DNA from: a virus
Length of the DNA stretch: 64,000 bases
Virus record (IMG/VR): IMGVR_UViG_3300009184_000001
Span: 1 to 64,000 of that record
Reading direction: 5' to 3' (one strand)
A program made the translations under genes and the position numbers. The notes under the pieces were generated by a model. It was not told where the DNA came from and did not search any database. It saw only the letters and a program-made list of their open reading frames with translations. Shown here piece after piece: positions 50,503-55,437 of the stretch. Each line of letters starts with the position of its first letter. The first letter of the stretch is position 1.

Positions 50503-50528
50503 TTTATTCTCCTATCTGTTATTGTTCG

Positions 50529-50599
50529 CTGATTCTGTAGGAGTCGAACCTACGCTAACGGTGTTGGAGACCGCTGTGCTACCGTAACACTTAGAACCA
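50529..50599 (-). tRNA. trnW: tRNA-Trp (CCA)
   Basis: Acceptor TGGTTCT/AGAATCA, D arm GTG..CAC, anticodon arm GCGGT-CTCCAAC-ACCGT, T arm GTAGG-TTCGACT-CCTAC, discriminator G; CCA end not encoded. Confidence 0.92.
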
Positions 50600-50669: not shown

Positions 50670-50749
50670 TGGACCAGCACAGAATTGAACTGTGGTCTTA
50701 CAGAGTCCTACTGGAGGCTTTGTTCTGCAATCGACACCATTTCTAGCCC
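50670..50749 (-). ncRNA. tmRNA tRNA-like-domain-only RNA (mini-ssrA)
   Basis: GGGCTAG/CTGGTCC-A acceptor with G3:U70; stemless D loop AAATGGTGTCGA; helix TTGCAGA/TCTGTAA; GAC linker; T arm CACAG-TTCAATT-CTGTG; no tag ORF. Confidence 0.8.
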
Positions 50750-52498: not shown

Positions 52499-52527
52499 TT
52501 GACAAGCTCTTAACTAGGCTATAGATT
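52499..52527 (+). promoter_or_regulatory. Sigma70-type promoter
   Basis: TTGACA-17 nt-TAGATT. Confidence 0.6.
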
Positions 52528-52612: not shown

Positions 52613-53119
52613 ATGCCTAGACCGACACCGCCATGTGGAACTAGGGCCGGATATCGTCTTCATGTTAGGGTGCAGGGGCGTCCTAAGGATGAATGTGAGC
52701 TATGTTACAACGCTGAACTACAGTACTGGCGTGACAAAAGAAACCCAAACCATCCAGATTACCGTGGAAAAGAAATAAACAAAATAAGAAGGCGGGCTAC
52801 GTTCCTCAAAAAACATGGCCTACCTAAGATTAACTACCGGATACGCAATGAAACCCTAGAAAAACGTAATCCACGTAAATGGGGCTGGGAGCACTACACT
52901 ACAGAGATGATAATAGAGCGTTGGGGCATCATTTGCTATCTTTGCAGTGAAGAGATAGACTTAGAGCTATCAAGGACAAGTCTAGAAGGTCTCCACCTAG
53001 ACCATGTCATACCAATATCAAAGAAAGGCTGCGATATCATCGATAATATAAAACCCACACATGCACGCTGCAACCTCGCCAAATCAGACAAAATGTGGCT
53101 AAATGGCGAACTCGTTTAG
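52613..53119 (+). CDS. HNH endonuclease with N-terminal zinc finger
   Basis: CGT.AGY..H..C..C; ICYLC...HLDHVIPISKKG..NIKPTHARCN. Confidence 0.88.
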   Translation: MPRPTPPCGTRAGYRLHVRVQGRPKDECELCYNAELQYWRDKRNPNHPDYRGKEINKIRRRATFLKKHGLPKINYRIRNETLEKRNPRKWGWEHYTTEMIIERWGIICYLCSEEIDLELSRTSLEGLHLDHVIPISKKGCDIIDNIKPTHARCNLAKSDKMWLNGELV

Positions 53120-53488
53120 GCTACTGCTTAATATTAAAAGAGCTCAACCGTGTTTTTCACCTGGCGATAATATATCCTGCTTGCGTTAGGGTTGTCCCAA
53201 AATTACCGTTATCCTAACACCATCATAAATAGTGATGGCACACTACTTATGTGAATAAGGTTTCGTGCTACCTATGGCGTGTAATTCCTATTTATAGGCA
53301 TAACCCTTAGTAATACGGCTAAGGGTTATGCTCATAAAGTAATCGCTGACTATCTCCCCTTATTGCTACGGCACGGCTTATTCATTAGGGTTATCTCCCC
53401 TAATGTGTGAACTGTGCCGTAGTTAGGTGCAGTAAACGCTATAACAACCGTTATAGTGAAACCCTTTACGCTTAGGAGCGTGATAGCG

Positions 53489-54100
53489 ATGAACACTACA
53501 ACATCGCAAACAGTATTAGTTGCTGACTCAACTGACGTAACTGGCAACGATGTGCCAGTATCCCTGTTTGAACGTGCCCTTGGTACGTTCACTGGTGACG
53601 GTGTTGGCTCTATCTTCAGGACTATTCCTGAATTAGAGCGACTAGTCCTTACTGAAATGGTGGCTCGACTAGAGTCCACTATGGAAGTAAACGGCGTAAC
53701 ATTCACCGTATCAGAAGCGCGTAGTTCCTTTAAGGCACTACACGTTCAGGGTGTCAAGACAGGCAAGCGAACCTGTGAGCAACTCCCAACTTGGGCAAAG
53801 AAGTCTGATGCCCCAGAGACAGAGTACGCAGAGACCATCATAGATAAAGAAATCTATGACATCTTCACAGTTGAGCGTGGCTTCATTGACGTAAAGTCAA
53901 ACGAAGAGGGTGTCCGTGACTATGTAGGTGTTCCTTGCCTGCTTAGAGGAGCAGATGCTCGCCTGTACAACGCCATTGACGAGTTCATTGGTGAACTTGG
54001 TATGGGCAGAAGCCGTCGTGGCAACAAGGGGTACTGGTCAGAGTATGACTTGGACGAGTTGGTCGCCGAGATGAAAGCCAGAATAGCTGAAATTAGCTAA
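53489..54100 (+). CDS. Hypothetical early protein
   Basis: Start moved to ATG 53489 after AGGAG; 203 aa. Confidence 0.75.
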   Translation: MNTTTSQTVLVADSTDVTGNDVPVSLFERALGTFTGDGVGSIFRTIPELERLVLTEMVARLESTMEVNGVTFTVSEARSSFKALHVQGVKTGKRTCEQLPTWAKKSDAPETEYAETIIDKEIYDIFTVERGFIDVKSNEEGVRDYVGVPCLLRGADARLYNAIDEFIGELGMGRSRRGNKGYWSEYDLDELVAEMKARIAEIS

Positions 54101-54291
54101 TCTGGCTACTGCTCAACACACGGGCAGGCTAAGTGAGTCTATCACCAGACTTACGAAGCCTGCCCGTTGCTGTTATCAAGTAAGACGTCGAGCAACGTCT
54201 ATAAATAATGCAGAAGTTACGCACGCTCTATGCTCCTAACTGCTAGGGAAAGTTAGGCGGGAAAGCCAGTGTTATTCCGATAAGGCAGTCA

Positions 54292-54364: not shown

Positions 54365-54586
54365 ATGGCTAAGAGCAAGTATGTCTTTGGAAATGCTTAC
54401 TATAGCAAAGCCCTAGCTATGAAAGATTACTATTATCATAGGGCAAAAGCAGTGAAGTGGTGGTGCGAGACATTTAACTCAGCACCAACTGTAAGGTCTG
54501 ATAGAAGAACCTTACGTAAAGCAAAACAAGTCACTAACTGGGACTTGTCAACAATGAATCTCTGGGAAGGAGAGCAGTATGTGTAA
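54365..54586 (+). CDS. Hypothetical protein
   Basis: GAAAGGAG RBS, 73 aa. Confidence 0.7.
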   Translation: MAKSKYVFGNAYYSKALAMKDYYYHRAKAVKWWCETFNSAPTVRSDRRTLRKAKQVTNWDLSTMNLWEGEQYV

Positions 54587-54872
54587 ACACACAGAGATAA
54601 TAACAGCAAGCCGTAATGCTGTTGTAGCCCTAAGGGCTAAAGTCCAAAGAAAACTACTTGTATTAGAGAACCCTTTTACAAGCGGCTCTGTAATAGGAGA
54701 GTTCTCTAGGCAAGAGAATGCCTATGACTTTCTCCTTATGGAAATAGAAGAGGTTGGCTGTAAGTCCTGTAAATATGATGCTCTAGACCCTGGTAGAAAG
54801 AGTAACTACCTTAGGTTTCTAGATGATTATGTTACACACTTTGCTAATGGTAAGTGTGAAGACTGTGAGTAA
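54579..54872 (+). CDS. Hypothetical Cys-rich protein
   Basis: CKH, CKSC, CEDC; AGGAG RBS. Confidence 0.7.
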   Translation: MCKHTEIITASRNAVVALRAKVQRKLLVLENPFTSGSVIGEFSRQENAYDFLLMEIEEVGCKSCKYDALDPGRKSNYLRFLDDYVTHFANGKCEDCE

Positions 54873-54931
54873 GTCTTTCTCATAGAAGCAAGGATAGTAT
54901 TTGGGTTATCTATCCTCTAAGTCTTCTCTAT

Positions 54932-55105
54932 ATCTCTACAAATAAGACCCCCGTAGAGATGAATAAAGGGGGCAAGTCGTCCTAGTAGCGCACTCCAAGT
55001 GGCATTCCCCTAGAAATACGCAGGGTGAGTAAGGTTCGAATCCTTACAGTGTGTGAAAGGCTCTCTCTATATAATAAGTCCCCCATAGAGAGCAGTAAAA
55101 GGGGG
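54932..55105 (+). repeat. Two imperfect direct repeats, each an H-type pseudoknot (54932-54972, 55063-55105)
   Basis: Shared pattern TCTCTA-x-AATAAG-x-CCCCC-x-TAGAGA-x-TAAA-GGGGG-CAA with compensatory changes. Confidence 0.65.
54988..55055 (+). ncRNA. Degenerate tRNA-like element
   Basis: Perfect T arm GTAAGG-TTCGAAT-CCTTAC stacked on GCGCACT/AGTGTGT; no canonical anticodon loop. Confidence 0.5.
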
Positions 55106-55251
55106 CAAAGCCCCCTTAGACCCCCGTACAAGGGCGTTCTAAGGGTAACCAAAGGGGCTTGGCTACGACCAAGGCAAGCACAACCGCTGGCGGTAGCTGT
55201 CTTCTCTAGAAGTAGTCAAGCCCCTCAACCTATATGAAAGGTAGGTAAGCA

Positions 55252-55437
55252 ATGACTAAATCAGTCAAGCAAGCAACACCTGTTACACCTGTTACACCAG
55301 CTAACACTAGCAAGCGAGCAATCGCTAGGCTCAAAGTTAGAGAAGCAAAGCACGGTGCAGAATGTCTTTACTGTGATGGTAGTGACCACAACCGTAAGCA
55401 AGTGTGGGATGCTGAAACACACAGTTGGGTAAAATAA
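55252..55437 (+). CDS. Hypothetical protein
   Basis: GAAAGG RBS; TPV repeat; CLYC..H. Confidence 0.7.
   Translation: MTKSVKQATPVTPVTPANTSKRAIARLKVREAKHGAECLYCDGSDHNRKQVWDAETHSWVK

What the first reader, a model, noticed from the sequence alone, without database searches (positions are those of the whole stretch)
54932..55105. Twin H-type pseudoknots with compensatory changes
Seen: copy 1 has S1 ATCTCTAC/GTAGAGAT, L1 AAATAAGA, S2 CCCCC/GGGGG, L3 GAATAAA. Copy 2 has S1 CTCTCTAT/ATAGAGAG, L1 ATAATAAGT, the same S2, L3 CAGTAAAA. Both are followed by CAA. Two S1 pairs covary (A-T to C-G and C-G to T-A) and AATAAG is kept in L1, which is internal evidence of selection on structure. Established: ToxI antitoxins are repeated pseudoknots of roughly this size with A-rich flanks. 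Inference: antitoxin mimics, exonuclease blocks or protein-binding aptamers.
Basis: partly seen in the sequence, partly recalled or inferred. Interest (0 to 1): 0.75.

Follow-up and report, generated by a model that had tools for sequence, protein, structure and literature searches.

The report
Pseudoknot module in phage mRNA leader
The two look-alike motifs are real copies of a small hairpin-plus-pseudoknot RNA module inside a conserved, heavily folded non-coding leader of a freshwater phage's early operon, but the doubling is a recent insertion found in only some relatives and nothing supports an antitoxin-mimic role.

Summary
Each has an 8-bp hairpin whose loop ends in CCCCC, then a 7-8 nt linker and GGGGG. 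They lie on the + strand in a 379-nt non-coding leader (54873-55251) between two small orphan early genes. The phage is a 94-kb freshwater myophage, probably of an actinobacterium.

Four relatives carry the same leader with only one module. The window has an extra 132-nt block (54931-55062), made of a divergent module plus a tRNA-like element. One lake-metagenome contig shares that stretch letter for letter over 54909-55071, although its flanks have diverged.

The leader is a real + strand RNA structure: helices P0 and P4 show compensatory changes and G-U pairs. It is 86-96% identical between phages whose neighbouring gene is only 56-69% identical. S1 is weakly supported by covariation. S2 never varies.

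GGGGG has two other conserved partners at nearly the same energy. One is a downstream GCCCCC hairpin and one is an upstream GUCUUCU tract. Only the loop CCCCC is available in all nine instances, so I rate the pseudoknot about 60% likely.

My best reading is a cis-acting structural or regulatory module of an early-mRNA leader. The ToxI-like reading fails its membership tests. The scan noted this stretch twice on this DNA and never on other DNA.

The parts
54579..54872 (+). Gene X, a 97-aa orphan. The leader follows this gene in every relative.
   Evidence: ORF list; no Pfam or PHROG hit; 15 homologues, some with a Cys/His-rich N-terminal extension; AF2 model is low confidence, pLDDT 62.
54873..54889 (+). 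Pa, a small hairpin (CUUUC/AGAAG in the window, CUUCU/AGAAG in relatives) starting right after the stop codon.
   Evidence: RNAalifold consensus on 5 leaders.
54891..54916 (+). P0 hairpin (AGGAUAG / CUAUCCU).
   Evidence: Two pairs with compensatory changes among 5 leaders.
54921..54927 (+). GUCUUCU tract, the upstream alternative partner ('Pext') of the G5 run through a G.U-rich helix.
   Evidence: ViennaRNA nested MFE and alifold pair it with AGGGGGC; invariant in all 5 leaders.
54931..55062 (+). 132-nt block absent from single-copy relatives. It holds module copy 1 and the tRNA-like element.
   Evidence: Alignment with L003, L005 and L008. The X4 contig skips 54906-55062. The X3 contig carries the block and is identical over 54909-55071, while its flanks are diverged and L019-like.
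54932..54972 (+). Module copy 1: S1 54932-39/54953-60, L1 54940-47, C5 54948-52, L3 54961-67, G5 54968-72.
   Evidence: CM R1 scores it 67.4 bits. It has no intact downstream GCCCCC partner.
54988..55054 (+). tRNA-like element: a 7-bp acceptor-like stem with 2 G.U pairs and a perfect T arm (UAAGG-UUCGAAU-CCUUA), but degenerate D and anticodon arms.
   Evidence: MFE fold. Not called by ARAGORN or the Rfam tRNA model. Only a weak mascRNA-like match, 15.7 bits, E 1.9.
55063..55105 (+). Module copy 2, the orthologue of the relatives' single copy: S1 55063-70/55085-92, L1 55071-79, C5 55080-84, L3 55093-55100, G5 55101-05.
   Evidence: CM R1 scores it 72.7 bits.
55099..55117 (+). 'Halt' hairpin AAGGGGGC-AAA-GCCCCCUU. 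It competes with S2 for G5 and is not followed by a U tract.
   Evidence: Invariant in relatives except the loop (CAAAG/CACAG). A weak Ocean-VII match lies here.
55113..55145 (+). P3 hairpin (CCCUUAGA/UCUAAGGG plus inner CCCC/GGGG). Its three basal C-G pairs overlap the Halt hairpin.
   Evidence: (I6). The apical part varies in length (L005).
55153..55225 (+). P4, a long irregular stem (14-bp base).
   Evidence: Five pairs with compensatory changes and several G.U/U.G pairs, which indicates + strand RNA.
55228..55246 (+). Hairpin covering the Shine-Dalgarno-like AGGUAGGU, 5 nt before the ATG.
   Evidence: Conserved in all 5 leaders, although three different ORFs follow it.
55252..55437 (+). 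Downstream 61-aa orphan ORF.

Best explanation
The two motifs are copies of one autonomous RNA module of about 45 nt. It has a 7-9 bp hairpin (core UCUCUAY/RUAGAGA) with a 13-15 nt loop ending in C5, then a 7-10 nt linker and G5.

The module forms the 5' part of a conserved, multi-helix, + strand leader RNA: Pa, P0, module, P3, a variable insert site, P4, and a hairpin over the ribosome-binding site. This leader lies inside the early operon of a freshwater, probably actinobacterial, myophage. It always follows gene X and feeds different small ORFs.

I think the module most likely folds as a classical H-type pseudoknot. G5 pairs with the loop C5, S2 stacks directly on S1, and no base separates the two helices. 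That fold also frees the next C5 to complete P3, so every G/C run in the leader ends up paired.

I think it works in cis as a compact structural cap on the early mRNA. It would set the stability, processing or expression of the RNA downstream of it, as the 5' pseudoknot of the T4 gene 32 leader is understood to do.

The second copy in this phage came in with a tRNA-like element as a 132-nt block exchanged between related phages. It is not a conserved 'twin' design.

Shown: the sequence anatomy, the conservation, the RNA-level structure of the leader, the + strand, and the single versus double arrangement. Inferred: S2 pairing and the cis-acting stability or expression role.
For: Anatomy and more than chance.

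One module in L003, L005, L008 and L019, in the same place in a colinear leader. No further copies in four related virus records.

RNA level and + strand:
- P4 has 5 compensatory pairs and many G.U pairs.
- P0 has 2 compensatory pairs.
- The whole leader folds with z = -4.05.

Constraint: the leader's 5' domain is 86-96% identical where the upstream CDS is 56-69% identical.

S1:
- All 4 differences between the copies are compensatory, and the register is unique (97% of cells paired against 27-60% when slid).
- Spacing between the S1 arms varies from 13 to 15 nt. A hairpin loop tolerates that; a dimer operator would not.

S2:
- C5 and G5 are invariant in all 9 instances, 6 in hand and 3 seen in lake contigs.
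- L1 (7-10 nt) and L3 (7-10 nt; GAAUAAA, CAGUAAA(A), UAAGUCCGAA, UAAGUCCAAA, CUUCAGAA) change in sequence and length.
- The loop C5 is the only partner of G5 present in every instance. Copy 1 lacks the GCCCCC arm, and copy 2 and the third type lack the adjacent GUCUUCU.
- Energetically, scaffold plus S2 stacking lies 5.7-6.3 kcal/mol below the best nested fold before any extra pseudoknot penalty.

Modularity: the same module precedes two different cargoes, P3-P4-ORF and a tRNA-like element.

Context: it lies 2.3 kb into a + strand early gene cluster that starts at a strong sigma-70-like promoter at 52499-52527. No promoter or canonical terminator was detected inside the leader.
Against: - S2 never varies, so it has no covariation support.
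- S1 covariation rests on one sequence (copy 1), and 42 of 500 shuffles reach it.
- G5 has two other conserved partners within about 3 kcal/mol. These are the Halt hairpin (8 bp, invariant) and the upstream GUCUUCU tract.
- The AA kept before G5 pairs with the UU after the downstream C5, which speaks for Halt.
- High identity may partly reflect recent recombination rather than selection. L005 and L008 are 100% identical in the 3' domain, and a 163-nt block is identical between diverged phages.
- There is no expression data. No RNA run holds the stretch.
- The pseudoknot has no obvious link to the ribosome-binding site about 140 nt downstream.
Confidence: 0.4

Rival explanations
1. Conformational switch or attenuator. 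G5 is a hub that toggles between the pseudoknot (with loop C5) and the Halt hairpin AAGGGGGC/GCCCCCUU. Halt would act as a U-tract-less terminator or processing hairpin after gene X. A protein, ligand or the transcription rate would choose the state and so set read-through into the downstream ORF.
For: Three mutually exclusive, invariant partners of G5 lie within about 3 kcal/mol of each other. Halt also steals three base pairs from P3, so the two states differ globally. The host is probably an actinobacterium (TerL 51% identical to Streptomyces phage BRock). From my own knowledge, hairpin terminators without U tracts have been proposed for that group.
Against: There is no U tract, and the terminator scan found nothing on the + strand here. 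No known riboswitch model matches. The downstream genes vary and are orphans, so no ligand logic is apparent. Copy 1 lacks the Halt arm yet keeps C5 and G5.
Confidence: 0.2
2. No pseudoknot. The module is simply a hairpin with a C-rich loop followed by an ordinary G/C hairpin. The loop C5 is conserved for another reason, or through recent common descent.
For: The nested MFE never needs S2. S2 has no covariation. The whole 5' domain is about 90% identical, so 10 invariant bases are not remarkable among the orthologues.
Against: Between the two diverged copies, S2 shows 0 changes in 10 positions against about 27% elsewhere (roughly p = 0.04 by my own count). C5 and G5 survive in copy 1, where the Halt arm is not intact, and in the third type, whose L3 is unalignable. 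No shuffle produced an all-G/C S2 in this geometry.
Confidence: 0.3
3. Trans-acting small RNA. The S1 hairpin presents a C5 loop that pairs with G-rich sequences (for example ribosome-binding sites) of host or phage mRNAs, as the C-rich loops of actinobacterial 6C sRNA do.
For: The C5 lies in an exposed 13-15 nt loop and is invariant. The host is probably actinobacterial. 6C acts through C-rich loops (PMC6486639).
Against: No Rfam 6C match. No promoter or terminator delimits a small RNA. The element is embedded in a colinear mRNA leader. A perfectly matching G5 sits 15-18 nt away in cis.
Confidence: 0.08
4. DNA-level element. Either the inverted repeat is an operator around a -10-like box (TATAAT lies in L1 of copy 2 and of L005), or the conserved block is a recombination boundary that shuffles early-gene cassettes.
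For: TATAAT at 55070-55075. Different ORFs follow the same leader, unrelated inserts sit at a fixed site, and there are 100%-identical blocks between otherwise diverged phages.
Against: Half-site spacing varies from 13 to 15 bp, and copy 1 has no TANNNT box. Compensatory changes and G.U pairs in the neighbouring helices show RNA-level selection. The motif is not repeated elsewhere in the genome.
Confidence: 0.1
5. Type III (ToxI-like) antitoxin mimic that neutralises a host ToxN/AbiQ-type endoribonuclease.
For: The unit is about 45 nt and able to form a pseudoknot. It is doubled in one phage and single in relatives, which recalls the expansion of pseudo-ToxI in phage PhiTE (PMC3475682).
Against: The copies are not tandem, are only about 80% identical, and have 90 nt of unrelated sequence between them. 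No Rfam match. No toxin gene is nearby. The pattern is absent from 185,579 prokaryote species genomes. The module is part of a larger conserved leader.
Confidence: 0.03

Closest known systems
5' pseudoknot of the bacteriophage T4/T2 gene 32 mRNA leader (from my own knowledge; not tested by sequence here)
   Same: An H-type pseudoknot at the 5' edge of an intercistronic leader inside a phage polycistronic transcript. It is thought to act in cis on mRNA stability and translation control.
   Different: No sequence relation. Here the pseudoknot is followed by further helices rather than an unstructured A/U-rich operator. The downstream gene is a variable orphan ORF, not a single-strand-binding protein. 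G5 has competing partners.
ToxI and other type III antitoxin RNAs, and pseudo-ToxI of phage PhiTE (PMC3475682, PMC5086642)
   Same: A small pseudoknot-forming RNA unit whose copy number differs between related phages.
   Different: Not a tandem array, no toxin partner, no Rfam match, no host counterpart found, and embedded in an mRNA leader.
Small H-type pseudoknot riboswitch aptamers (preQ1-I, SAM-II, guanidine-III)
   Same: Size (about 35-50 nt), H-type topology, and a 3' arm that overlaps an alternative hairpin.
   Different: No covariance-model match. No junction or L2 pocket, because S2 abuts S1. L3 is variable, and there is no gene association that suggests a ligand.
Exoribonuclease-resistant RNAs of plant viruses (dianthovirus/polerovirus class; from memory, a lead only)
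   Same: A stem-loop of about 45 nt whose apical loop pairs with a short G/C-rich sequence a few bases downstream. It is an autonomous module placed in front of different RNAs.
   Different: Those have a conserved internal loop and a ring that encloses the 5' end. Here S1 is a continuous 8-bp helix. Nuclease resistance is untested, and no phage example is known to me.
Ocean-VII RNA (Rfam RF03092)
   Same: A G5/C5 hairpin with CAG..A before it and AGAC after it. This was the best Rfam match.
   Different: 17.9-18 bits against a gathering score of 53.5. The match covers the Halt hairpin, not the pseudoknot, and the Ocean-VII consensus has no C5 loop run.
6C sRNA of Actinobacteria (PMC6486639)
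   Same: A hairpin displaying a C-rich loop in a probably actinobacterial setting.
   Different: No homology. One loop rather than two. It lies within an mRNA leader, and a cis G5 partner is present.

Membership tests
Type III antitoxin RNA (ToxI/CptI/TenpI) | Head-to-tail tandem array of one short repeat unit | tested here: not met
   Two copies 132 nt apart with unrelated sequence between them, and about 80% identity. Relatives have a single copy.
Type III antitoxin RNA (ToxI/CptI/TenpI) | Adjacent gene for a ToxN/AbiQ-family endoribonuclease (a mimic would instead need a matching host locus) | tested here: not met
   The neighbours have no Pfam hit. PF13958 was not found in the phage, but the control genomes did not ring either, so that search is weak. 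The motif pattern has 0 hits in 185,579 species genomes.
Type III antitoxin RNA (ToxI/CptI/TenpI) | Match to a curated RNA model of the family | tested here: not met
   No such hit at gathering threshold or at E up to 10.
Classical H-type pseudoknot (structural class) | Hairpin loop bases complementary to a downstream segment, with loop lengths that can span the helices | tested here: met
   S1 7-9 bp, S2 5 G-C pairs abutting S1, L1 7-10 nt and L3 7-10 nt in all nine instances.
Classical H-type pseudoknot (structural class) | Comparative (covariation) support for both helices | tested here: inconclusive
   S1 has 2 covarying pairs from one sequence, reached by 42 of 500 shuffles. S2 is invariant.
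Classical H-type pseudoknot (structural class) | Physical evidence that S2 forms (probing, mutational rescue) | not testable with these tools
   ViennaRNA cannot score pseudoknots. A rough energy balance puts the pseudoknot level with two nested alternatives.
Pseudoknot riboswitches (preQ1-I/II/III, SAM-II/V, fluoride, guanidine-III) | Match to the family covariance model | tested here: not met
   None among matches up to E = 10 in 54850-55260.
Pseudoknot riboswitches (preQ1-I/II/III, SAM-II/V, fluoride, guanidine-III) | Expression platform (terminator or ribosome-binding site) overlapped by the aptamer | tested here: inconclusive
   G5 overlaps the Halt hairpin, but Halt has no U tract and the real ribosome-binding site is about 140 nt away.
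Ocean-VII RNA (RF03092) | Score at or above the Rfam gathering threshold (53.5 bits) | tested here: not met
   17.9 bits in the window and 18 bits in L019 and L025.
tRNA (for the element between the copies) | Cloverleaf recognised by ARAGORN or the Rfam tRNA model | tested here: not met
   Only tRNA-Trp at 50528-50599 is called. The element keeps a T arm and an acceptor-like stem only.
T4 gene 32-type leader pseudoknot | Pseudoknot at the 5' edge of an intercistronic leader of a phage operon | tested here: met
   Its position in the leader, 60 nt after the stop of gene X and within a + strand operon.
T4 gene 32-type leader pseudoknot | Followed by an unstructured A/U-rich operator of an autoregulated single-strand-binding protein gene | tested here: not met
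   It is followed by helices P3 and P4. The downstream ORFs are variable orphans.

The most novel reading that the evidence does not exclude
The module is a self-contained, transferable RNA 'end-cap'. In the doubled arrangement the tRNA-like element would be cut out by RNase P and RNase Z (tRNA punctuation). That leaves one pseudoknot at the new 3' end of the upstream mRNA and one at the new 5' end of the downstream mRNA. There they would block exonucleases such as RNase J or PNPase. This would be a bacteriophage counterpart of viral exonuclease-resistant RNAs, carried on a cassette of about 130-160 nt that moves between phage genomes by recombination.
Probability: 0.1. Interest if true: 0.75.

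Novelty: new variant of a known kind. Interest (0 to 1): 0.4.

Why it matters
If the pseudoknot forms and acts as proposed, this would be an uncatalogued structured-RNA family from uncultivated freshwater, probably actinobacterial, phages. It would be a small autonomous module placed in front of different RNAs and exchanged between phages. It would give a testable case of how phages of these hosts stabilise or gate early transcripts, and a compact part for RNA engineering.

As it stands, the family is small: five leaders in hand plus a few lake contigs. The function is inferred, and the striking 'twin' feature is a lineage-specific insertion. The interest is therefore moderate.

Tried and rejected
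- Rfam at gathering threshold found only tRNA-Trp. In E-value mode it found only sub-threshold chance-level hits (Ocean-VII, mascRNA, mir-9033, anti-hemB).
- blastn of the locus against 50,697 phage records: no match.
- Pattern scans:
  - Exact copy-type patterns found nothing new or only the known relatives.
  - A looser pattern added 6 loci (L010-L015). All lack an S1 arm and are chance matches.
  - The metagenome flank pattern gave one new relative (L019) and two chance hits (L016, L017).
  - Genome collection: the gene X profile and the motif pattern both gave nothing.
- The search for related loci with gene X alone and with its alignment gave only known contigs plus a truncated one (L023).
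- The genome search 'relatives' is not available for a virus record.
- No RNA holder is listed among the sequencing runs. Expression is therefore untested.
- The AF2 model of gene X is low confidence (pLDDT 62) and was not used for a fold search. Relaxed Pfam searches on longer homologues found nothing.
- The ToxN Pfam search of the phage found nothing, but its control did not ring, so it carries little weight.
- Translational bypass or read-through at the repeated UAAGUCUUCUC: rejected, because the take-off and landing codons do not match and a stop follows the second repeat (reading).
- Repeated phage promoter: rejected, because the flank motif is not repeated genome-wide.
- A small conserved ORF in the leader: rejected. 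The 8-codon ATG frame occurs in copy 1 only, and the inserts of 113 and 117 nt are unrelated in sequence.
- A paper search for 'Ocean-VII' returned nothing, and one search failed on syntax.

Full report
**Observation.** There are two units, each with an 8-bp inverted repeat (S1), a 13-14 nt loop whose last five bases are CCCCC, a 7-8 nt linker, and GGGGG followed by CAA. The repeat finder reports them as a direct repeat with 132-nt spacing and 81% identity over 32 nt.

Between the two copies, the four differences inside S1 form two compensatory pairs. The ten S2 bases do not differ. The loops carry about five substitutions or indels.

I scanned the 94,440-bp genome for this geometry: a perfect S1 of at least 8 bp, an abutting perfect 5-bp S2, and loops of 5-12 nt. 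The scan found four hits, and two of them are these units. Thirty dinucleotide shuffles gave a mean of 0.9 hits, and none had an all-G/C S2.

**Setting.** The window belongs to a 94.4-kb virus record with terminal repeats.
- Structural genes (terminase, portal, sheath, baseplate) lie on the minus strand up to about 51 kb.
- A + strand cluster of small genes starts after a strong sigma-70-like promoter at 52499-52527.
- The large terminase is closest to that of Streptomyces phage BRock, at 51% amino-acid identity.
- The DNA occurs in freshwater and lake metagenomes.

The host is therefore probably a freshwater actinobacterium. That is an inference.

The motifs lie in a 379-nt gap (54873-55251) between a 97-aa ORF, which I call gene X, and a 61-aa ORF. 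Neither has a Pfam or PHROG match. This gap folds much better than shuffled sequence (z = -4.05).

**Relatives.** The neighbouring proteins and DNA patterns recovered four distinct related leaders: L003 (identical in several records), L005 (from a complete 90-kb sister phage), L008 and L019.

All four share one colinear architecture:
- The stop codon of gene X sits inside a conserved UAAGUCUUCUC.
- A small hairpin Pa follows, then hairpin P0.
- A second UAAGUCUUCUCU comes next.
- ONE module follows.
- GGGGG is followed immediately by CACAGCCCCC, which forms a hairpin I call Halt.
- Then comes P3 (CCCUUAGA...UCUAAGGG).
- Next is a site where unrelated inserts of 113-138 nt occur in some members.
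- A long stem, P4, follows.
- A hairpin over the ribosome-binding site follows P4, and the ATG comes 5-6 nt after it.

Three different ORFs follow the leader in different phages. Gene X always precedes it.

A covariance model of the module found no further copies in four related virus records. The module pattern is absent from 185,579 prokaryote species genomes.

**The doubling.** Compared with the relatives, the window has an extra 132 nt (54931-55062). This block holds a divergent module (copy 1) and a tRNA-like element. Copy 2 is the orthologue of the relatives' single copy.

Laying contigs from four lake runs on the region showed three things:
- One contig has the single-copy form. It skips 54906-55062.
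- One 3.3-kb contig has the doubled form. It is identical to the window over 54909-55071, yet L019-like and diverged on both sides. The stretch holding the extra copy has therefore been exchanged recently between different phages.
- Three contigs carry a third type of single module. It has copy 1's 5' half (UCUCUACAAAUAAGACCCCC), S1 as CUCUCUAC/GUAGAGAG or a 9-bp version, quite different linkers (UAAGUCCGAA, UAAGUCCAAA, CUUCAGAA), and the usual GGGGGCAAAGCCCCCUUAGACCCCCG. Its upstream context is different.

'Twin' is therefore a lineage-specific arrangement, and copy 1 probably came from a third-type relative.

**Is it RNA, and on which strand?**
- P4 has five pairs with changes on both sides and several G-U and U-G pairs.
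- P0 has two compensatory pairs.
- The hairpin over the ribosome-binding site uses U-G pairs.

G-U pairs would be C-A mismatches on the other strand, so the structure belongs to the + strand RNA, the strand of the genes.

The 5' domain of the leader, which includes the module, is 86-96% identical between phages whose adjacent gene X sequence is only 56-69% identical at the DNA level. Part of that may come from recent exchange. L005 and L008 are 100% identical in the 3' domain.

**Does the pseudoknot form?**
S1 is solid as a hairpin. 97% of cells pair in register, against 27-60% when slid. Its covariation rests on copy 1 only, and 42 of 500 shuffles reach it. The outermost pair is A.G in L003 and L019.

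S2 is invariant, so covariation says nothing about it.

G5 also has two other conserved partners:
- The downstream GCCCCC, which forms Halt. Halt is 8 bp with the flanking A-U pairs and is invariant.
- The upstream GUCUUCU, through a G.U-rich helix that ViennaRNA prefers.

The energies are close. The Halt state lies 0-3.3 kcal/mol above the nested optimum. The scaffold plus S2 stacking (-13.2 kcal/mol) lies 5.7-6.3 kcal/mol below that optimum before any additional pseudoknot penalty. With the usual penalties, which I take from memory, the three states are roughly level.

Three arguments favour S2:
- It is the only pairing open to G5 in all nine instances. Copy 1 has no intact GCCCCC arm, and copy 2 and the third type lack the adjacent GUCUUCU.
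- C5 and G5 stay fixed while both loops change in length and sequence.
- With S2 formed, the next C5 completes P3, so every G/C run of the leader is paired.

One argument favours Halt: the AA kept before G5 pairs with the UU after the downstream C5.

I put the pseudoknot at about 60%, and I consider a real two-state equilibrium plausible.

**Function.** Nothing links the module to type III toxin-antitoxin systems. There is no tandem array, no toxin gene, no Rfam hit and no host counterpart. No riboswitch model matches. The best Rfam hit, Ocean-VII, reaches 18 bits against a threshold of 53.5 and covers Halt, not the pseudoknot.

The leader contains no detectable promoter or canonical terminator on the + strand, so it is probably part of the early polycistronic mRNA.

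The same module heads two different cargoes, P3-P4-ORF and a tRNA-like element, which suggests an autonomous cis-acting unit. My best reading (0.4) is a compact structural cap of an early-mRNA leader that sets the stability, processing or expression of the RNA behind it. In outline this resembles the 5' pseudoknot of the T4 gene 32 leader.

The alternatives are:
- a G5-centred switch or attenuator (0.2);
- no pseudoknot at all (0.3, a structural rival);
- a trans-acting C-loop sRNA like 6C (0.08; PMC6486639);
- a DNA-level operator, promoter or recombination boundary (0.1). The variable 13-15 bp arm spacing and the RNA-level covariation next door argue against this;
- a ToxI-like mimic (0.03; PMC3475682).

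**Limits.**
- The family in hand is small and closely related.
- No RNA data exist for this stretch.
- Earlier notes of this scan on the same genome flagged the same stretch and the tRNA-like element. They also reported a mini-tmRNA gene at 50670-50749, which fits an actinophage setting. Nothing similar was noted on other DNA.

Noticed in passing
window 54988-55054 (+): A tRNA-like element with a perfect T arm (UAAGG-UUCGAAU-CCUUA) and a 7-bp acceptor-like stem, but no proper D or anticodon arm and no CCA. ARAGORN and the Rfam tRNA model do not call it. The only match is weak and mascRNA-like (15.7 bits).
   Followed up: partly
window 54909-55071: A 163-nt block (P0 3' arm, copy 1, tRNA-like element, start of copy 2) is letter-for-letter identical in a 3.3-kb lake-metagenome contig (run X3). 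That contig's flanks are L019-like and carry 14 substitutions and 6 indels after 55072. This points to recent exchange between diverged phages, or a small mobile cassette.
   Followed up: partly
window 55149-55152; L003:2752-2864; L008:7393-7509: A fixed site between P3 and P4 holds unrelated inserts of 113, 117 and 138 nt in L003, L008 and an X4 contig. The window, L005 and L019 have none. This looks like a hot spot for small structured inserts.
   Followed up: no
window 54104-54182: Another non-coding block just after ORF 53456-54100 is 88-99% identical in four related loci, well above the surrounding sequence. It contains a GGGCAGGCU...AGCCUGCCC hairpin.
   Followed up: no
window 54579-54872 and homologues P0002-P0009: Gene X exists in two forms. 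The short form (83-103 aa, as here) contrasts with a long form carrying a Cys/His-rich N-terminal extension of about 30-58 aa (CxC...CxCxCH). No Pfam family matches, and the AF2 model is a low-confidence three-helix bundle.
   Followed up: partly
genome 77916-77956 (+), outside the window: This is the only other place in the genome with the same pseudoknot geometry (S1 of 8 bp or more, plus an abutting 5-bp S2, TGCAG).
   Followed up: no
window 55101-55125: G5 could also pair with the C5 inside P3 (55121-55125). The scan found this as a mirror-image pseudoknot on the minus strand. It gives G5 a fourth potential partner.
   Followed up: no
window 52499-52527 (+): A strong sigma-70-like promoter (TTGACA-17-TAGATT) lies ahead of an HNH endonuclease gene (52613-53119). 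It is the likely start of the + strand early operon that contains the leader.
   Followed up: no
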